Shown: in pieces, positions 43,343-57,118 of the stretch
Layout of the letters: each line of letters opens with the position of its first letter
Numbering within the stretch: the first letter of the stretch is position 1
NCBI GenBank assembly: GCA_045661325.1
Contig: JAZRFK010000093.1
Span: 3,585-67,584, forward strand
DNA length: 64,000 nucleotides
Source: Eubacteriales bacterium
GTDB taxonomy: Bacteria; Bacillota; Clostridia; Oscillospirales; CAG-272
Direction of reading: 5' to 3'
The notes under the pieces: generated by a model
The model's database searches: none
What the model saw: only the letters and a program-made list of their open reading frames with translations
What the model was told of the DNA's origin: nothing
Position numbers and translations under genes: made by a program

Positions 43343-43418
43343 TGGTGCTCCTGCGGGGATTCGAACTCCGGACACCTTGATTAAAAGTCAAGTGCTCTGC
43401 CGACTGAGCTACAGGGGC
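43343..43418 (-). tRNA. tRNA-Lys (anticodon UUU), CCA encoded
   Basis: The minus strand reads GCCCCTGTAGCTCAGTCGGCAGAGCACTTGACTTTTAATCAAGGTGTCCGGAGTTCGAATCCCCGCAGGAGCACCA. It folds as a cloverleaf with anticodon loop CTTTTAA. Hand-folding shows two A-C mismatches. Confidence 0.85.
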
Positions 43419-52378: not shown

Positions 52379-52460
52379 GCGGGTATGGTGGAACGGCAGA
52401 CACGCTGGTCTTAGGAACCAGTTCGTAAGAGTGTGGGTTCAAATCCCACTACCCGCACCA
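52379..52460 (+). tRNA. tRNA-Leu (anticodon UAG), CCA encoded
   Basis: GCGGGTA...TACCCGCACCA forms a perfect acceptor stem. Anticodon stem-loop is CTGGT-CTTAGGA-ACCAG, T arm is GTGGG-TTCAAAT-CCCAC, and there is a long variable region. Confidence 0.9.
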
Positions 52461-52461
52461 G

Positions 52462-52498
52462 AAAAAAGGAACTTTTGTCTACCAAAAGTTCCTTTTTT
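52462..52498 (+). terminator. Terminator-like hairpin after tRNA-Leu (also the first, variable hairpin of ladder element A)
   Basis: AAAAAA-GGAACTTTTG-TCTAC-CAAAAGTTCC-TTTTTT. Confidence 0.8.
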
Positions 52499-52504
52499 GT
52501 TTAT

Positions 52505-52683
52505 CCAAGCCGCAGGCTTGGTATATCATCGACGCGCGAAGCGCGGTGCATATCATCAGCCCCTTTGGGGCTGTATCTCATCACGCGACAGCGTGTATTT
52601 TCCTGCGGCTTGATGATATACAATGCTTCGCATTGATGATATACCGCAACAAGTTGCGGATGATATCCACGCGTTACGGCGTG
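52505..52683 (+). repeat. Hairpin-ladder element, copy A (7 short hairpins separated by 3 GTATATCATC-type and 3 GATGATATAC-type linkers)
   Basis: Read directly from the sequence (see findings for the coordinates of each module). A second copy lies at 53670-53869. Confidence 0.9.
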
Positions 52684-52710
52684 ATTTGGAAGGGAGATTG
52701 CGGAAAATAC

Positions 52711-52739
52711 TTGAAGTGCTTTGCAAAATATGATATAAT
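52711..52739 (+). promoter_or_regulatory. Cassette-1 promoter (TTGAAG-17-TATAAT, TGa-extended)
   Basis: The hexamers have exact 17-nt spacing. The AAGGAG SD at 52748-52753 and the ATG at 52761 follow. Confidence 0.55.
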
Positions 52740-52760: not shown

Positions 52761-53108
52761 ATGGCTAAAAACTATTTATTGATATATTCGGAGCGGCTTG
52801 CGACCGATATCGAATTACTTTGTCAAAATATAAAAGCCACCTCCAACACTCTTTTCCAAATTCGCAAGAGTTCAAGTAGTGTGTACGCAAATATTCGTGA
52901 AGCCAATTACGGACAGAGCAAAGCAGATATGCTTTCGAAATTTGAAATAGCTCTTAAAGAATGTAGTGAAACAGAAGGTTGGTTACAGTTGTTATTTAAT
53001 ATGAATGCCATACATGAAGAAACCTATAAAAATTATCGAAATCTTTGCGGTCGTATCAGACGAATGTTGATTGCGAGTTGTAAAACATTAAAGGAGGATC
53101 TTAAATGA
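52761..53108 (+). CDS. Four-helix-bundle protein (23S rRNA intervening-sequence protein / Avd-like family)
   Basis: 115 aa. The core SSSSVYANIREANYGQSKADMLSKFEIALKECSETEGWLQLL matches the family pattern (SxxSIxANIxEAxGxxSxxDFxxxLxIAxxExxETxxWLxLL). Confidence 0.85.
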   Translation: MAKNYLLIYSERLATDIELLCQNIKATSNTLFQIRKSSSSVYANIREANYGQSKADMLSKFEIALKECSETEGWLQLLFNMNAIHEETYKNYRNLCGRIRRMLIASCKTLKEDLK

Positions 53109-53554
53109 AATTTCGCAGAAACGTCAAAGAAGAAAAGTTTTCCTGTGGAGTAGCAATAGGTGGTCTTGTGTTACTTGCCATACTTTTTGTTATTTTCGTC
53201 ACAACACGCGACAATGCTTTATTGAATTTGATTGTTCCTGCCATACTGATTCCGCCGCTTTCCTTTTTTATAAGCATTTCAATGAAAAAGCAATTTGTCG
53301 AATTTAAGGAAGACAAAATCATTTTGATAAACGGAAACGGACGAGATATTACGATAGATATATCTGAAATTGAAGCAATAATGATACCGTCTGCTACAGC
53401 ACTGAAAAGTAAAATACAGGATAATCCCATTATTCTTAAAAGGCGAGTAATCAAAAACATAATCTCATATAGCATTGAAATTGAAGAATATATAAAGAAA
53501 AATCTAAAAATTGACATAGTCTATTACGACAAATATAGTAGGGCTATAAAATAA
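53105..53554 (+). CDS. Two-TM membrane protein with cytoplasmic beta-rich domain (possibly bacterial PH/DUF304-like)
   Basis: 149 aa. ATGA start/stop overlap with the upstream gene. Two hydrophobic helices are followed by a ~90-aa domain. The bPH assignment rests on architecture only. Confidence 0.6.
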   Translation: MKFRRNVKEEKFSCGVAIGGLVLLAILFVIFVTTRDNALLNLIVPAILIPPLSFFISISMKKQFVEFKEDKIILINGNGRDITIDISEIEAIMIPSATALKSKIQDNPIILKRRVIKNIISYSIEIEEYIKKNLKIDIVYYDKYSRAIK

Positions 53555-53623
53555 TCATTTTTATAGTTGACCTTTTCTTCGCTTTTACCTCGATTTTTGT
53601 CCTTTTATTACGTTTAAGGCAAC

Positions 53624-53663
53624 AAAAAGAGAACATTTGTCAACCGACAAATGTTCTCTTTTT
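53624..53663 (+). terminator. Terminator-like hairpin after cassette 1 (variable first hairpin of ladder element B)
   Basis: AAAAA-GAGAACATTTGTC-AACC-GACAAATGTTCTC-TTTTT. Confidence 0.8.
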
Positions 53664-53669
53664 GTTTAT

Positions 53670-53869
53670 CCAAGCCGCAGGCTTGGTATATCATTGAATG
53701 TATAACGCGCCTGTGGGGAGATATACTTTCGTATATCATCAAGGGCGGCGAGCCGCCCTTGTATCTCATCACGCGACAGCGTGTATTTTCCTGCGGCTTG
53801 ATGATATCCAGCCCTACGGGCTGATGATATACCGCAACAAGTTGCGGATGATATACAAGGCTTTGCCTT
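53670..53869 (+). repeat. Hairpin-ladder element, copy B
   Basis: Same module order and linkers as copy A. Three blocks are identical to A, and four hairpin positions are replaced by unrelated palindromes. Confidence 0.9.
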
Positions 53870-53896
53870 GATTTATTGCCTAAAGTGTGATATAAT
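53868..53896 (+). promoter_or_regulatory. Cassette-2 promoter (TTGATT-17-TATAAT, TGa-extended)
   Basis: The hexamers have exact 17-nt spacing. It sits at the same position relative to the ladder element as the cassette-1 promoter. Confidence 0.55.
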
Positions 53897-53936: not shown

Positions 53937-54530
53937 ATGGATGTAATCGATCATTATGATCTGTTGATAGAAGAACAAAACGATCCCTTCCGTGATCCCC
54001 CCGTTTTACAAGAATATATGAGCAAATGGGATGGCGAACCGTTTTTGGAAGCGTTGGAGCTTTCCAAAGATAAGTCAGTTTTGGAAATCGGTATTGGCAC
54101 AGGAAGAATCGCCGTTAAGGTTACTCCGTGCTGCTTAAAGATGACAGGCATTGATATTTCTCCCAAAACCACCCAGCGAGCAAAAGATAATCTAAATGAA
54201 TACAGCAATATTTCCTTCATATGTGGCGATTTTAATGTTCACGAATTTGACGAAACATTCGATGTTATATATTCGTCCCTCACAATGATGCACTTCGAAA
54301 ACAAGGAAGCTGTCATCAACAAGGTTGACAAATTGTTAAATGATAACGGCATCTTTTGCTTATCCATTGATAAAAACCAAAGTGAATATATTGATATGGG
54401 AACTCGCAAAATCAAGGTGTATCCCGATACTCTCGATAATATAACATTGATTATCGAAGAAACCGCAATGTCGGTTGTAAATGTAATTGAAACCGATAAC
54501 GCATACATTATTGTAAGCAGAAAACAATAA
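53937..54530 (+). CDS. Class I SAM-dependent methyltransferase (small-molecule/Methyltransf_11/25-like)
   Basis: ATG at 53937 follows GACGGAGG. Motif I is VLEIGIGTGRIA, and post-I is the acidic GID. No DPPY/NPPY or cytosine-C5 motifs were seen. Confidence 0.8.
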   Translation: MDVIDHYDLLIEEQNDPFRDPPVLQEYMSKWDGEPFLEALELSKDKSVLEIGIGTGRIAVKVTPCCLKMTGIDISPKTTQRAKDNLNEYSNISFICGDFNVHEFDETFDVIYSSLTMMHFENKEAVINKVDKLLNDNGIFCLSIDKNQSEYIDMGTRKIKVYPDTLDNITLIIEETAMSVVNVIETDNAYIIVSRKQ

Positions 54531-54560
54531 ATCAAATTCCAATTTATCGAGTGGCACACT

Positions 54561-54615
54561 TGGTGTACTTTTAGTCGTTCTTACCCCACTTTACGCACCT
54601 TTTGGTCGTTCTTTT
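54561..54615 (+). repeat. Direct repeat C1 (~55 bp), left boundary of cassette 3
   Basis: TGGTGTACTTTTAGTCGTTCTTACCCCACTTTACGCACCTTTTGGTCGTTCTTTT. It aligns without gaps to 57064-57118, with 6 mismatches. Confidence 0.85.
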
Positions 54616-54733
54616 CATATTTTCGGCACAATTTAGGGAAAATCAAAGCAAAATACAGGTAAATTAGGCGCTGCAGCGGTCGCAAGGACTGTCGCAGCGT
54701 TGTTTTTATGCCCGCAGCAGCGTAAAAATGGGC

Positions 54734-54753
54734 TGTACTTTTTGTCGTTCTTT
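54734..54753 (+). repeat. Partial third copy of the C-repeat 5' part (TGTACTTTTTGTCGTTCTTT)
   Basis: Matches C1 positions 54564-54583, apart from 54576 and the final base. Confidence 0.7.
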
Positions 54754-54833
54754 GCTCAAATAAAGAACAGCAAAAACATTGCGTCATGAGAGAGTTGAAC
54801 CAAAATGCTTGTAAACCTTTTCACCGTTTCCTA

Positions 54834-54862
54834 TTTACAAAAGTAAGGTATTATGCTATACT
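54834..54862 (+). promoter_or_regulatory. Cassette-3 promoter (TTTACA-17-TATACT, TGc-extended)
   Basis: The hexamers have 17-nt spacing. The GAGGAAGGA SD and the ATG at 54908 lie downstream. Confidence 0.45.
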
Positions 54863-54907
54863 TATTCTGTATAAGTATAAATATAGTGAGGAAGGATAAC
54901 CGTTGCT

Positions 54908-56737
54908 ATGAACATAAAAAATATCAATGTTAACAAATACCCGATTTCGCAAATGTTAGACCCCGAGTCGAAAATTGTCTTTGAAATTCCGAAATACCAG
55001 CGTGAGTACATCTGGGGTGCACATCAATGGGAACAGCTGTTTGATGACCTCTCGGAAAACAACAACGGTTACTTTTTAGGATCGATAATTTGTATAAATA
55101 CGACTGTCGATTCAATCAATTCTCCGAAGTTTGAAGTCGTTGACGGACAACAGCGTCTCACAACGATCAGCATTTTTATGACTGCGCTTTATTCCGAACT
55201 TTTTAAGCTGTACGATCAATTAGACGAAGACCAGCAGGCAGATGTCCTTCAAATCAAGCGCAGACTGGTATTGAAAAAGACTGAGTCTGGAATTCGTATC
55301 ATACCGCAGGTGCAGAACAGTAACTTCGACGATTATATGGGATTGCTTGCCGAAAACAAACTAATTGCACCGAGAAGCATGCCAAAATTCGCAGGCAATA
55401 GAAGAATTGTTAAAGCGTACTGGTATTTCAAAAAGCGCATTGAAGCAGAAATTGCGGAAAGCGACGATGCAGTTGCAAAGCTGTTCGATATATTGGATAA
55501 GGTAAATTCGGCTATTCTGGTAATGATTGATGTATCGAATCATGCGGACGCATATACCCTTTTCGAATCGCTCAATAATCGTGGAACACCGCTTACGGCA
55601 GTTGACCTCATCAAAAATCTGCTTCTGTCGAAGCTCGATGTCAATGACAGCGAAAACCTCGATTACTATTTTACCCGTTGGACTGAAGTGATAGATTATA
55701 TCGGGGACGATTACTCGGTACAAGAGCGTTTCTTTCGACAAAACTACAATGCGTTTAGAAGCGCAATAAACGCACCTTTTATTAAGGATAAGGACGATCG
55801 TAAGTATCCGCTCGGACCTCTCGCAACACGGTCGACAATGCTCGATATTTACGAACGCATGGTAGTACGTAATCCAAAAGAATTTTTGGAAGTTATACTG
55901 GAACATGCAAGAATTTATTCGGGCATTATACTTCGCAACACCGAGGGTTTAGATCCTGTATTAAAGGAACGCTACCTTGATTTACAAAGAGCACAAGGTG
56001 CGCCGTCATATCTGCTTTTGATGTACCTTACAAAGAACAGTAAAACTTTAGGACTCACAGAAACGGATATGGTCGCAATAAGCGGTTTGCTGGTTCGTTT
56101 CTTCGTGCGCCGAAACTTAACAGACACGCCTCCTACTAGAGACTTAACCCGTTTGTTCATGCTGTTTATCGAAGAATTTGAACAGAACGGATACACCGGC
56201 ACAGATATTTACAATGCGCTTCGTGAAAAGCTTATCAGCTGCACAGCCAGCGATGAACTGTTTGAAGAAAAGCTTCGCGGGTCTGTTTACGCAGAAAACT
56301 TCGGCGTAACGCGTTTTGTGCTTTGTGCCTTGGCGAAAAAAGGCATGACAGTAGAGACGCAGGTGGACCTTTGGCGCATGAATAACAACAACCAGTATGT
56401 CTGGACGATTGAGCACATTTTCCCGCAGGGACAAAACATCCCAGATCATTGGGTAGATATGATAGCAGATGGTGATTCAGACAAAGCAAAGGAAATTCAA
56501 ACGCTTTATGTACACACATTCGGCAACCTCACGATCACAGGATACAACAGCACTTTAAGTAATAGGCCATTCGAAGATAAAAAGAATCATAAAGATTCCA
56601 ACGGCAATTACATTGGTTATAGAAACGGGTTGAATTTGAACGCCGATGTTTGCGACAAGGAAGCATGGACGCTCGATATTATCAAAGCGCGTACAGATAG
56701 ACTCGTAAAAGAAATTTTGGCTGAATTTCAGCTATAA
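54908..56737 (+). CDS. DUF262/DUF1524 two-domain nuclease (GmrSD-like type IV restriction family)
   Basis: 609 aa. N-terminal ParB-like DUF262 domain with the VVDGQQRLTT motif. C-terminal His-Me finger DUF1524 with WTIEHIFPQ ... HTFGNLT. Confidence 0.88.
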   Translation: MNIKNINVNKYPISQMLDPESKIVFEIPKYQREYIWGAHQWEQLFDDLSENNNGYFLGSIICINTTVDSINSPKFEVVDGQQRLTTISIFMTALYSELFKLYDQLDEDQQADVLQIKRRLVLKKTESGIRIIPQVQNSNFDDYMGLLAENKLIAPRSMPKFAGNRRIVKAYWYFKKRIEAEIAESDDAVAKLFDILDKVNSAILVMIDVSNHADAYTLFESLNNRGTPLTAVDLIKNLLLSKLDVNDSENLDYYFTRWTEVIDYIGDDYSVQERFFRQNYNAFRSAINAPFIKDKDDRKYPLGPLATRSTMLDIYERMVVRNPKEFLEVILEHARIYSGIILRNTEGLDPVLKERYLDLQRAQGAPSYLLLMYLTKNSKTLGLTETDMVAISGLLVRFFVRRNLTDTPPTRDLTRLFMLFIEEFEQNGYTGTDIYNALREKLISCTASDELFEEKLRGSVYAENFGVTRFVLCALAKKGMTVETQVDLWRMNNNNQYVWTIEHIFPQGQNIPDHWVDMIADGDSDKAKEIQTLYVHTFGNLTITGYNSTLSNRPFEDKKNHKDSNGNYIGYRNGLNLNADVCDKEAWTLDIIKARTDRLVKEILAEFQL

Positions 56738-56742
56738 AGAGA

Positions 56743-57063
56743 ATGAACATGGCAAATAGTTCAGTAATAAGGATATTGAAGCTGTACAAATTACTTCGCC
56801 AGGAAACCAACGAACAACACCCCCTGCTTGCCACTACGGTTTGTCAGCGTTTAGTTGAACAAGGTATTCCCTGCGACCGCAGGACATTAACACGAAATGC
56901 CAGAACGCTTAACGATTACGGTTACGAAGTAATGGACAGATTGGTTGGGCATGAAAAAGCTTACGCTGATATAAAATCGCAGCTGGTGGAATTGCTTGCA
57001 AAGCTGGCAGCGCTCATCAGCGAGAAGAAGCACATGTTCGGCGGCGGATACGCGTTCTTCTAA
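56743..57063 (+). CDS. HTH regulator fragment (N-terminal wHTH of the WYL/BrxR-like class, no WYL domain)
   Basis: 106 aa. IRILKLYKLLRQETNEQHPLLATTVCQRLVEQGIPCDRRTLTRNARTLNDYGYEV resembles the HTH_11-type N-terminus of WYL regulators. The ORF stops exactly at repeat C2. Confidence 0.55.
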   Translation: MNMANSSVIRILKLYKLLRQETNEQHPLLATTVCQRLVEQGIPCDRRTLTRNARTLNDYGYEVMDRLVGHEKAYADIKSQLVELLAKLAALISEKKHMFGGGYAFF

Positions 57064-57118
57064 TGGTGTACTTTGGGTCGTTCTTCCCCCACCTTACGCA
57101 CCGTTTGGTCGCTCTTTC
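57064..57118 (+). repeat. Direct repeat C2, right boundary of cassette 3
   Basis: TGGTGTACTTTGGGTCGTTCTTCCCCCACCTTACGCACCGTTTGGTCGCTCTTTC, the partner of 54561-54615. Confidence 0.85.

What the first reader, a model, noticed from the sequence alone, without database searches (positions are those of the whole stretch)
52505..52683. Hairpin-ladder element, copy A: an unrecognised, highly ordered structured repeat downstream of tRNA-Leu
Read directly from the sequence, the modules in order are:
- Hairpin HP0: CCAAGCC-GCA-GGCTTGG (52505-52521).
- Linker L1: GTATATCATC (52521-52530).
- Hairpin HP1: CGCGC-GAA-GCGCG (52533-52545).
- Linker L2: GCATATCATC (52548-52557).
- Hairpin HP2: AGCCCC-TTT-GGGGCT (52558-52572).
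- Linker L3: GTATCTCATC (52573-52582).
- Hairpin HP3: CACGC-GACA-GCGTG (52582-52595).
- Centre: TATTTTCCTGCGGCTT.
- Linker R1: GATGATATAC (52612-52621).
- Hairpin HP4: AATGC-TTC-GCATT (52622-52634).
- Linker R2: GATGATATAC (52635-52644).
- Hairpin HP5: CGCAAC-AA-GTTGCG (52645-52658).
- Linker R3: GATGATATCC (52659-52668).
- Hairpin HP6: CACGC-GTTACG-GCGTG (52668-52683).

The three left linkers are reverse complements of the three right linkers. L3/R1, L2/R2 and L1/R3 can therefore form nested 10-bp helices with at most one mismatch each. Each step would carry a local hairpin on both strands, giving a predicted stack of four-way junctions.

Alternatively, the linkers form a 3+3 inverted array of 10-bp protein-binding repeats with ~23-27 bp periodicity.

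I cannot match this to CRISPR, attC, REP/BIME, IS ends, retron msr/msd or any riboswitch I know.
Basis: seen in the sequence. Interest (0 to 1): 0.85.

Follow-up and report, generated by a model that had tools for sequence, protein, structure and literature searches.

The report
Hairpin-ladder repeat behind tRNA genes
This is one copy of a widespread, apparently undescribed family of highly ordered DNA repeats (an invariant 10-base linker alternating with small variable hairpins) that sits just behind tRNA genes in gut Clostridia and marks the places where small accessory gene cassettes are swapped in and out.

Summary
The element is not a local oddity.

- **Architecture:** tRNA (or cassette end), then a bidirectional terminator, HP0, (linker-hairpin)x3, a centre box, (linker-hairpin)x3, and a promoter.
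- **Hairpins:** the small hairpins covary strongly.
- **Strand bias:** loops are strand-biased, GNA/GNNA 74 against TNC/TNNC 4 on the strand reading GTATATCATC. That is the top strand in the left arm and the bottom strand in the right arm.
- **Long-range pairing:** HP0 also covaries with the centre box.
the proposed linker-linker helices (a stack of four-way junctions) show no covariation.
- **Databases:** no Rfam, plasmid, phage or literature match was found.
- **Neighbours:** the only enriched neighbouring gene is a four-helix-bundle protein (PF05635). An identical cassette carrying it lies behind several different tRNAs, and its junctions fall inside the ladder.

Best reading (about 0.4): a REP/BIME-like extragenic repeat that acts in single-stranded form and serves as a recombination platform for cassettes at tRNA 3' ends. 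The trans-acting factor is unknown.

The parts
52379..52460 (+). tRNA-Leu (anticodon TAG). The element begins immediately after its 3' end.
   Evidence: ARAGORN; Rfam RF00005, 60.6 bits.
52462..52499 (.). Bidirectional intrinsic terminator: A-run, stem GGAACTTTTG / loop TCTACC / stem AAAAGTTCC, then T-run. It is part of the repeat unit.
   Evidence: Sequence. Homology between copies A and B starts at the A-run. An identical terminator plus ladder follows different tRNAs in L147, L149, L155 and L156.
52503..52686 (.). Ladder copy A, from ATCC to GAT: HP0, three minus-sense linkers with hairpins, the centre box, then three plus-sense linkers with hairpins.
52505..52521 (+). HP0 hairpin CCAAGCC-GCA-GGCTTGG. 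Its 5' arm plus loop (X box, 52506-52516) is complementary to the centre box.
   Evidence: Helix 1 is 99.6% paired, and 4 of its 7 pairs change on both sides. X:X' data are.
52521..52582 (-). Left arm. Linkers: L1 52521-52530, L2 52548-52557, L3 52573-52582, reading GTATATCATC on the + strand. Hairpins: HP1 52533-52545 and HP2 52558-52572.
   Evidence: Hairpin covariation. The folding strand here is the top strand.
52582..52595 (+). HP3 hairpin CACGC-GACA-GCGTG.
   Evidence: helix 4, 79% paired in the MAFFT register.
52602..52612 (+). Centre box X' (CCTGCGGCTTG), complementary to 52506-52516. This long-range pairing would enclose the left arm.
   Evidence: At least six distinct box families each match their own HP0. 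92.8% of cells are paired. 30 cells change on both sides, against 9.3 +/- 2.2 in shuffles, 0 of 500. The pairing is in the RNA minimum-free-energy fold and the DNA centroid fold.
52612..52683 (+). Right arm. Linkers: R1 52612-52621, R2 52635-52644, R3 52659-52668. Hairpins: HP4 52622-52634, HP5 52645-52658, HP6 52668-52683.
   Evidence: Loops read TNC on the top strand, which is GNA on the bottom strand.
52711..52739 (+). Promoter-like site of cassette 1: TTGAAG, 17 nt, TG-n-TATAAT.
   Evidence: The same flank-plus-promoter module follows the ladder in L044, L109 and L147-L156.
52761..53108 (+). Four-helix-bundle protein gene (PF05635 / TIGR02436), 115 aa. This is the only gene family enriched next to ladders.
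53105..53554 (+). 149-aa partner ORF with hydrophobic stretches and no family match, overlapping the four-helix-bundle stop codon by 4 nt.
   Evidence: A 101-aa partner ORF sits in the same position in L147-L156; homology between the two partners was not tested.
53621..53666 (.). Terminator hairpin of copy B: 21-bp perfect arms with a 4-nt loop.
   Evidence: Inverted repeat I6; alignment with copy A.
53668..53872 (.). Ladder copy B. HP0 53670-53686. Linkers: L1 53686-53695, L2 53731-53740, L3 53761-53770, R1 53800-53809, R2 53823-53832, R3 53847-53856. HP6 53856-53870.
   Evidence: It shares HP0, L3-HP3-centre-R1 and HP5 with copy A, and differs in HP1, HP2, HP4 and HP6.
53868..53896 (+). Promoter-like site of cassette 2: TTGATT, 17 nt, TG-n-TATAAT.
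53937..54530 (+). SAM-dependent methyltransferase gene (cassette 2).

Best explanation
Copy A is one member of a multi-copy, order-wide family of extragenic palindromic repeat clusters. It is a functional analogue of REP/BIME elements. The family lives in the trailer of tRNA genes in Oscillospirales gut Clostridia.

The building block is an invariant roughly 10-nt AT-rich linker followed by a small GC-rich hairpin of free sequence. Three blocks point inward from each side, toward a centre box that pairs with the outermost hairpin. The whole unit sits between a bidirectional terminator and the next promoter.

The hairpins matter in single-stranded nucleic acid, most likely DNA. Each arm is optimised on the strand that runs 5'->3' toward the centre. 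The linkers, displayed between hairpins, are the probable recognition motif of a trans-acting factor that has not been identified.

Because many near-identical modules exist in each genome and across species, the ladder acts as a recombination platform and as portable homology. Through it, small self-contained cassettes (promoter, genes, terminator) are inserted, duplicated and exchanged at tRNA 3' ends. The commonest is the cassette carrying the four-helix-bundle protein and a small partner protein.

**Shown:** the family, its architecture, hairpin and HP0-centre covariation, strand asymmetry, tRNA linkage, cassette linkage, and mosaic junctions.
**Inferred:** the single-stranded DNA state, the trans-acting factor, and recombination as the function.
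For: **Family and architecture**
110 of the 120 loci held carry at least 3 clustered linkers. 86 clusters are 'minus then plus' (45 are exactly 3+3), and only 1 is 'plus then minus'.

**tRNA linkage**
- About 50 elements lie 50-65 nt after a tRNA gene. At least 13 amino-acid types of tRNA are involved, and the HP0 side always faces the tRNA 3' end.

**Hairpins**
- Of 265 unique spacers, 71% have at least 4 perfect pairs counted from both ends, against 0.8% in shuffles.
- On alignment A2, 92.1% of cells are paired. 180 cells change on both sides, against 50.5 +/- 5.3 in shuffles (0 of 500). Slid controls pair at 25-38%.

**Strand choice**
- On the GTATATCATC strand, triloops are GNA 43 against TNC 3, and tetraloops are GNNA 31 against TNNC 1. 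The closing pair is C-G in 87 of 96 triloops. Half of all loops are triloops.
- Single mismatches are G.T-type 20 against A.C-type 5 on that strand.
- By my own knowledge, c(GNA)g triloops are the classic hyperstable DNA mini-hairpin, as in d(GCGAAGC).

**Not duplex binding**
- Spacing is unphased at 19-31 bp, which argues against binding to duplex DNA.

**HP0-centre covariation**
-.

**Recombination platform**
- Tandem cassettes are bounded by directly repeated ladders in the window and in L026, L042, L046, L075, L085, L120 and L151.
- An identical 117-aa four-helix-bundle protein with a 101-aa partner lies behind tRNA-Ala, tRNA-Gln, tRNA-Trp and a tRNA remnant. The left limit of the shared sequence falls at different linkers within the ladder or at the tRNA end.
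- Copies within one genome share different subsets of modules.
- Unit expansions of identical blocks occur, with 12, 9 and 6 units.
- The four-helix-bundle genes sit mostly on 0.5-1.5 kb contigs, which suggests assembly breaks at repeats.
Against: - No enzyme or binding protein was identified. A Pfam scan of 147 neighbouring ORFs shows enrichment only for PF05635 (11) and HTH_3 (7), with no enrichment of any transposase or integrase family.
- No filled-versus-empty pair of orthologous sites was obtained. The metagenome relatives of the flanking gene were too distant and not syntenic.
- Compensatory-looking changes in small palindromes can also arise without selection, by quasi-palindrome template switching.
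- Some unidirectional arrays lie between co-directional genes with no terminator (L067, L038). Those arrays are probably transcribed, which keeps an RNA role open.
- DNA versus RNA is inferred only from loop statistics.
Confidence: 0.4

Rival explanations
1. Structured RNA. The arms are transcribed, the left arm as read-through of the tRNA terminator and the right arm by antisense transcription. They act at the RNA level as fail-safe bidirectional terminators or insulators, as blocks to 3' exonucleases, or as a multi-site sponge for an RNA-binding protein that reads the linkers between hairpins.
For: - The position between a bidirectional terminator and the next promoter is constant.
- The favoured strand of the left arm is the tRNA sense strand. 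It has G-start loops and a G.U-type bias of 8 against 2.
- GNNA tetraloops number 31 of 43.
- Unidirectional arrays lie between co-directional genes with no terminator, so they are probably part of an mRNA (L067, L038).
- The RNA fold gives z = -5.9.
Against: - The two arms are optimised on opposite strands, so no single transcript carries all the favoured hairpins.
- In the intercistronic arrays, the mRNA strand is the disfavoured strand.
- Triloops closed by C-G dominate (96 of 187). This is typical of DNA mini-hairpins rather than of RNA.
- No inward-pointing promoter was found on the right flank of copy A.
- There is no Rfam family match.
- Invariance of the linker across hundreds of species exceeds what a hairpin barrier would need.
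Confidence: 0.2
2. Dedicated site-specific recombination site, working like an integron attC. In single-stranded DNA the left and right linkers pair, as in the first reader's ladder. The hairpins and the conserved L3:R1 mismatch serve as structural marks. A dedicated recombinase encoded elsewhere inserts and excises circular cassettes at tRNA-anchored sites.
For: - Cassettes are bounded by full, directly repeated ladders.
- Copies A and B share an identical 48-nt L3-HP3-centre-R1 segment flanked by unlike hairpins.
- In L151 the cassette is flanked by near-identical HP2-L3-HP3-centre segments.
- The linker helices are thermodynamically favoured.
- A conserved, uncompensated mismatch in 19 of 32 elements could be a structural mark, like the extrahelical bases of attC.
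Against: - The limits of shared sequence among identical cassettes fall at different places in the ladder, not at one crossover point.
- Downstream of the four-helix-bundle cassette there is usually no left arm. The precise 3' boundary is a different module, the 54-nt 'D4' repeat.
- No recombinase gene is enriched near ladders.
- The linker helices show no covariation.
- Most ladders are solitary.
Confidence: 0.15
3. Array of binding sites in duplex DNA: an operator, roadblock or nucleoid-protein site made of 3+3 inverted 10-bp repeats. It would be bound by a dimeric or oligomeric protein, possibly the four-helix-bundle protein or an XRE-type regulator, and would control the downstream promoter or block polymerases.
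For: - The linkers are near-invariant and show position-specific variants.
- The right arm lies about 30-110 bp upstream of the -35 box.
- PF05635 and HTH_3 are the two most frequent neighbouring families.
Against: - Spacing ranges from 19 to 31 bp (median 23) and follows hairpin length, so the sites fall on different faces of the helix.
- Hairpin covariation and strand-asymmetric loops have no role in duplex binding.
- The same array precedes unrelated housekeeping genes.
- The left arm lies downstream of a tRNA gene, not upstream of a promoter.
Confidence: 0.1
4. Miniature non-autonomous transposon (MITE). Its inverted ends each carry three transposase-binding sites, as in Mu-like or Tn7-like elements, and it is targeted to terminators or tRNA 3' flanks.
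For: - The 3+3 inverted arrangement has a fixed inside-out polarity, 87 'minus then plus' junctions against 1 'plus then minus'.
- Both ends carry partial linkers (ATC... and ...GAT).
- The right flank often begins with TT(T), as if the element had inserted into a T-run.
- The location is specific and tRNA-proximal.
Against: - No convincing target-site duplication is seen.
- No transposase was found nearby.
- The terminator travels with the element.
- The hairpins between sites and the HP0-centre pairing remain unexplained.
- The number of units varies from 1 to 12 per arm.
Confidence: 0.08

Closest known systems
REP / BIME / REPIN elements of Proteobacteria (mobilised by RAYT, a Y1 HUH transposase)
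   Same: - Both are extragenic, multi-copy clusters of small palindromes placed just after the 3' ends of genes.
- Units occur in inverted orientation and fold as hairpins in single strands.
- The number of units is variable.
- They persist across a large clade.
- They are hotspots for recombination and insertion, and they break assemblies.
   Different: - The pattern of conservation is inverted. Here the linkers are invariant and the hairpins are free in sequence. REP hairpins are conserved and BIME linkers come in a few types.
- There is no GTAG-type tetranucleotide.
- The layout is strict: three units, a centre, then three units, with a covarying outer-hairpin/centre pairing.
- The element is tied to tRNA trailers and comes with its own terminator.
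- No RAYT-like gene was seen next to any of about 110 loci.
Integron attC sites and cassette arrays
   Same: - Both are structure-defined sites with short conserved inverted boxes and variable paired sequence between them.
- Folding is strand-specific.
- Both bound small accessory cassettes arranged in tandem.
   Different: - The R''/L''/L'/R' core consensus is absent.
- There are three box pairs rather than two.
- The cassettes carry their own promoters and terminators.
- The array is anchored at tRNA genes rather than at attI/intI.
- No integrase was found.
- Junctions are not at a fixed point.
- The two arms favour opposite strands.
Modular repeats of Firmicutes such as pneumococcal BOX elements (boxA-(boxB)n-boxC)
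   Same: Both are modular intergenic repeats in Firmicutes, with a variable number of internal units and predicted stable secondary structure.
   Different: BOX modules are conserved in sequence (boxB is 45 nt). They are not linker-hairpin alternations, are not symmetric, and are not tied to tRNA genes. This comparison rests on memory and was not tested here.
Lambda-type attP sites and tRNA-targeting integrative elements
   Same: Both are sites of roughly 200 bp with 10-bp arm-like repeats in inverted orientation around a centre, lie next to a tRNA gene, and bound inserted DNA.
   Different: - The site does not overlap the tRNA gene, and the same unit follows many different tRNAs.
- Both arms are present at every boundary. 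They are not split into attL and attR.
- No integrase is present.

Membership tests
Any Rfam family (riboswitch, sRNA, retron msr/msd, and others) | Scores at or above the family's gathering threshold with its covariance model | tested here: not met
   Only the two tRNAs pass in the window. At E up to 10, only the terminator hairpin gives sub-threshold noise. Related loci again yield only tRNAs.
REP/BIME/REPIN | Extragenic, multi-copy clusters of short palindromes in inverted orientation | tested here: met
REP/BIME/REPIN | The palindrome itself is the conserved unit, with a conserved 5' tetranucleotide (GTAG type) | tested here: not met
   There are 265 different hairpin sequences between invariant linkers, and no conserved tetranucleotide apart from the linker.
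REP/BIME/REPIN | A cognate RAYT (Y1 HUH transposase) gene, usually flanked by its own repeats | tested here: inconclusive
   No such family is enriched among 147 ORFs next to ladders or in the ORF clustering. Whole genomes could not be searched.
Integron attC | R''(RYYYAAC)/L'' ... L'/R'(GTTRRRY) core sites | tested here: not met
   The sequence shows no such cores. The conserved boxes are GTATATCATC and GATGATATAC.
Integron attC | Pairing of the inverted boxes supported across homologues | tested here: inconclusive
   The boxes are complementary and nearly invariant. No pair changes on both sides, and variants are uncompensated.
Integron attC | Adjacent intI/attI platform with promoterless cassettes | tested here: not met
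   No integrase was found in the neighbourhoods. The cassettes have their own promoter-like sites.
CRISPR array | Direct repeats of 23-50 nt, unique non-palindromic spacers of 26-72 nt, in one orientation | tested here: not met
   The repeat is 10 nt. Spacers are 9-21 nt palindromes. Two opposed orientations are present.
MITE or IS ends | Terminal inverted repeats bounded by a target-site duplication | tested here: inconclusive
   Inverted architecture and partial-linker ends are present. No duplication is recognisable at copies A and B or in 42 printed elements. No empty site was obtained.
Plasmid or phage element (iterons, parC/parS, cos/pac, sso) | Occurrence on plasmids or phages | tested here: not met
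   No blastn match among 72,556 plasmids or 50,697 phage records. The one real viral-contig hit (L006) follows what looks, by eye, like a partial tRNA 3' end, so it was read as host flank.
Intrinsic terminator | GC-rich hairpin followed by a T-run | tested here: met
   This holds only for the hairpin at 52462-52499, which precedes the ladder. HP3 and HP6 of copy B give weak consensus matches. The ladder hairpins are followed by the linker, not by a T-run.

The most novel reading that the evidence does not exclude
The ladders are the recombination sites of a cassette-capture system in Firmicutes that is anchored on tRNA trailers and has not been recognised before. This would be a functional counterpart of integrons in a phylum where, to my knowledge, complete integrons have not been reported. 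In this reading the sites are read as folded single-stranded DNA by a dedicated enzyme still to be found. The hugely abundant PF05635 four-helix-bundle protein, from the family also found inside 23S rRNA intervening sequences and as Avd in diversity-generating retroelements, would be its nucleic-acid-binding accessory factor. That would explain how this enigmatic gene family moves into stable-RNA loci.
Probability: 0.15. Interest if true: 0.9.

Novelty: new variant of a known kind. Interest (0 to 1): 0.7.

Why it matters
If the reading holds, a whole order of abundant gut bacteria carries a repeat system with a very unusual design: invariant linkers, free but covarying hairpins, mirror-image arms each tuned on its own strand, and an outer hairpin that covaries with a centre box. 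The system marks tRNA 3' ends as exchange points for accessory and defence cassettes.

It gives a concrete, testable handle on three questions:
- How small cassettes spread among uncultured Clostridia.
- What the PF05635 four-helix-bundle proteins of rRNA intervening sequences and retroelements do in other contexts.
- Whether stable DNA mini-hairpins are used as signals on bacterial chromosomes.

There are practical consequences too. These repeats appear to break metagenome assemblies. They also create spurious ORFs and false N-terminal extensions in gene calls.

Tried and rejected
- **Rfam:** searched at gathering score and at E up to 10. Nothing but tRNAs and hairpin noise.
- **blastn against plasmids and phages**: no match.
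- **Viral contig scan**: five of six hits are unrelated tandem repeats. One is real, but I read it as host flank.
- **Exact-protein look-ups** of the window's SpoIIGA and four-helix-bundle proteins: not on record.
- **Metagenome search with the HAD hydrolase upstream of tRNA-Leu**, done to find filled and empty sites.
- **All-against-all clustering of ORFs in the loci**: the largest cluster is made of spurious ORFs read through the ladder. No recombinase cluster appeared. The ABC-ATPase cluster is heterogeneous and not orthologous.
- **Literature searches** by motif, by PF05635/TIGR02436 and by keywords: no description of this element. The TAACTGA direct repeats of Beggiatoaceae (PMC4679880) are repeats of a different 7-nt unit and, in the passages retrieved, show no alternation with hairpins, so they are not analogous.
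- **Linkers as promoter -10 or -35 elements:** considered by eye and rejected, because the spacing is wrong and the -7 T is missing.
- **A fixed crossover core:** rejected, because tandem pairs share different subsets of modules.
- **The 54-nt D4 module as a tRNA 3' remnant:** rejected by eye, because no similarity is visible.
- **Error:** helix L1:R3 was entered one column out of register, so that helix's numbers there are void. One search gives the correct columns.
Full report
**1. The observation**

- GATGATATAC with up to one mismatch occurs 13 times in the window against 1.5 expected, and no shuffle reaches 13.
- Twelve occurrences form two clusters, copy A (52521-52668) and copy B (53686-53856). 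Each has three on the minus strand followed by three on the plus strand.
- tRNA-Leu(tag) ends at 52460.
- The region folds far better than shuffles, z = -5.9 with either RNA or DNA parameters.
- Aligning the two copies shows that the repeated unit is longer than reported. It starts at the A-run of the terminator hairpin that follows the tRNA (copy A) or follows the preceding ORF (copy B). It ends at a partial linker, GAT, just before a promoter-like site with an extended -10.

**2. It is a large family**

- Of the 120 loci held, 110 have at least three clustered linkers. Nearly all are labelled Clostridia, Oscillospiraceae, Acutalibacteraceae or Eubacteriales MAGs from animal and human guts.
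- 86 clusters are 'minus then plus'; 45 are exactly 3+3. 32 are unidirectional. Only one 'plus then minus' adjacency exists.
- Spacing within an arm has a median of 23 (5-95%: 20-31). The central gap has a median of 39.
- The window's organism is a spore-forming Clostridium-like bacterium, since it encodes SpoIIGA. Two of its proteins (SpoIIGA and the four-helix-bundle protein) have no exact copy in the protein collection.

**3. Anatomy, from 42 printed elements and the statistics**

The order is: tRNA or cassette end; A-run, terminator hairpin, T-run; ATCC; HP0; three units of GTATATCATC plus hairpin; a centre box; three units of GATGATATAC plus hairpin; GAT; AT-rich DNA with a promoter-like site.
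- The last C of each linker and the first G of the next close the intervening hairpin, so about 8 nt (TATATCAT) would remain unpaired.
- The hairpins vary freely in sequence and length but stay palindromic. Of 265 unique spacers, 71% have at least four perfect pairs from both ends, against 0.8% in shuffles.
- On a 32-sequence alignment, 92.1% of cells pair. 180 cells carry changes on both sides, against 50.5 +/- 5.3 in shuffles (0 of 500). Slid controls pair at 25-38%.

**4. Which strand folds**

- On the strand that reads GTATATCATC, triloops are GNA 43 times and TNC 3 times. Tetraloops are GNNA 31 times and TNNC once. The closing pair is C-G in 87 of 96 triloops. Half of all loops are triloops.
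- Single mismatches inside otherwise perfect stems are G.T-type 20 against A.C-type 5 on that strand. In the left arm alone the count is 8 against 2 on the top strand.
- So the left arm is tuned on the top strand, which is the tRNA sense strand. The right arm is tuned on the bottom strand. Both run 5'->3' toward the centre.
- From established knowledge, c(GNA)g triloops are the hyperstable DNA mini-hairpin motif, as in d(GCGAAGC), whereas natural RNA hairpins favour tetraloops. This is why I lean toward DNA. It is an inference, not a demonstration.

**5. A second long-range feature**

The 5' arm plus loop of HP0 (52506-52516) is complementary to the box just left of R1 (52602-52612).
- At least six distinct box families each match their own HP0: CCTGCGGCTT, CTGTCGGCTT, CTTTCGCAAT, ACTCCGTAAT, TTCGCAAG and CGCTTCGGTT. 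Two different boxes can occur in one genome (L042).
- On the alignment the helix is 92.8% paired. 30 cells change on both sides, against 9.3 +/- 2.2 in shuffles, 0 of 500.
- This pairing would enclose the left arm, and it competes with the HP0 hairpin.
- It appears in the RNA minimum-free-energy fold and in the DNA centroid.

**6.

- RNAalifold predicts L1:R3, L2:R2 and L3:R1, because the linkers are complementary and nearly invariant. But none of the 28 linker pairs has a change on both sides.
- The covariation score equals the shuffled value (valid for two helices; the third was mis-registered by me).
- The frequent position-specific variants are almost never matched in the partner: L3 GTATCTCATC in 20 of 35 and R2 GATGATATGC in 17 of 35.
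- The pairing is therefore possible but unsupported. The opposite-strand tuning of the two arms speaks against a single folded strand.
- Binding to duplex DNA is hard to reconcile with the unphased 19-31 bp spacing.

**7. Context**

- About 50 elements lie 50-65 nt after a tRNA gene. At least 13 amino-acid types of tRNA are involved, always with HP0 toward the tRNA 3' end.
- Other elements follow a terminator at the end of a small cassette, as copy B does.
- Downstream genes are diverse. A Pfam scan of 147 neighbouring ORFs shows only two enriched families: PF05635 (four-helix-bundle, '23S rRNA intervening sequence protein'; 11) and HTH_3 (7). No transposase or integrase family is enriched.
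- The window's 115-aa protein has more than 3,392 clusters of homologues. The top 120 are at least 79% identical, nearly all 88% or more, and sit mostly on 0.5-1.5 kb contigs, as expected if repeats flank the gene.
- One identical 117-aa version with a 101-aa partner ORF is on 19 contigs. It lies directly behind tRNA-Ala, tRNA-Gln, tRNA-Trp and what looks like a tRNA 3' remnant.
- In four of those contexts even the terminator is identical from the base after the tRNA 3' end. In the others the shared sequence begins at different linkers inside the ladder.
- Tandem ladders within one locus share different subsets of modules.
- Arms can expand to 6, 9 or 12 identical units.
- Together this indicates frequent recombination or template switching through the linkers, and movement of cassettes between tRNA loci and between species.

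**8. What it most likely is**

It is a REP/BIME-like extragenic palindromic repeat family with an inverted logic: conserved linkers and free hairpins. It acts in single-stranded form and serves as portable homology, a recombination platform for accessory cassettes at tRNA 3' ends.

In the window it bounds cassette 1 (four-helix-bundle protein plus a 149-aa ORF) and cassette 2 (a methyltransferase). A GmrSD cassette follows, flanked by another repeat. Confidence is about 0.4.

The main rivals are:
- an RNA-level insulator or protein sponge (0.2);
- a dedicated attC-like recombination site (0.15);
- a duplex protein-binding array (0.1);
- a MITE with 3+3 transposase-binding sites (0.08).

The trans-acting factor is unknown. 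No filled-versus-empty pair of sites could be obtained.

**9. Novelty**

There is no Rfam family, no plasmid or phage match, and no hit in the held literature by motif, by family accession or by keywords.

I file it as a new variant of a known kind (extragenic palindromic repeat clusters). It fails the defining sequence features of REP, attC, CRISPR and MITEs. It should be treated as working like a BIME, not as a member of that family.

Noticed in passing
window 54561-54614 and 57064-57117 (partial copy 54734-54752; diverged copy about 53563-53618): A 54-nt module (two roughly 20-nt direct repeats of the form TTTT[AG]GTCG[TC]TCTT, 31 nt apart) lies at the 3' end of cassettes and flanks the GmrSD gene plus a 106-aa ORF as an 89%-identical direct repeat. 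The same module ends the four-helix-bundle cassette in L147-L156, where it forms the precise right-hand limit of the shared sequence. It may be the true cassette-end or attachment signal.
   Followed up: partly
window 52462-52499 and 53621-53666; L147-L156: The terminators in front of the ladders form a family of their own. The apical part is conserved, (T)TTTGTCTACC(G)ACAAA(A). The lower stem differs between copies but stays paired, and A- and T-runs flank it on either side. The identical terminator follows different tRNAs, so it travels with the ladder.
   Followed up: partly
L149-L156 (downstream of the four-helix-bundle cassette), L020, L057, L148 1857-2060: Other tRNA or cassette terminators in the same genomes are followed by different hairpin arrays. 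These use other short linkers (AATGATG, GAAATC, GTGATATT, ATGAAGC) with the same style of small GC hairpins and TTC/TTCG loops. In L148 the terminator is duplicated on either side of a roughly 170-bp hairpin-rich insert.
   Followed up: no
window 52761-53108 and homologues P0001-P0120: Many database versions of the four-helix-bundle protein are 153 or 161 aa instead of 115. I infer that gene callers start the ORF inside the ladder, where the linker translates as DDI, MIY or YHQ. ORFs read through ladders also formed the largest cluster in my own ORF clustering.
   Followed up: partly
window 53937-57063: The island behind tRNA-Leu looks like a small defence and accessory island: a SAM methyltransferase (weak PADLOC mad2 match), a GmrSD-type type IV restriction enzyme (609 aa) and a 106-aa ORF with no family match.
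   Followed up: partly
L006 (viral contig) and L149 about 1950-2000: In two loci the ladder follows what looks, by eye, like only the last roughly 18-35 nt of a tRNA (T arm plus acceptor end). ARAGORN and Rfam do not call it. This would be expected if another element integrated into the tRNA and displaced its original 3' end together with the terminator and ladder.
   Followed up: no
L069 1-390, L038 828-1031, L075 2082-2286, L059 610-761: Some arms are expanded to 6-12 units made of two or three alternating identical hairpin modules, as if by slippage or unequal exchange between linkers. Some arrays are purely unidirectional and lie between co-directional genes without a terminator (L067 after lysS, L038).
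   Followed up: partly
L015 515-960 (contig labelled Bacteroidaceae): A 41%-identical four-helix-bundle gene is followed directly by a partial ladder: an L-like linker, HP3, a centre box and two perfect GATGATATAC linkers. This could be transfer outside Clostridia or a binning error. Part of the locus is masked with N.
   Followed up: no
window 43343-43418 (minus strand): The other tRNA in the window, tRNA-Lys(ttt), has an ordinary terminator and no ladder, so the element is not present at every tRNA.
   Followed up: yes
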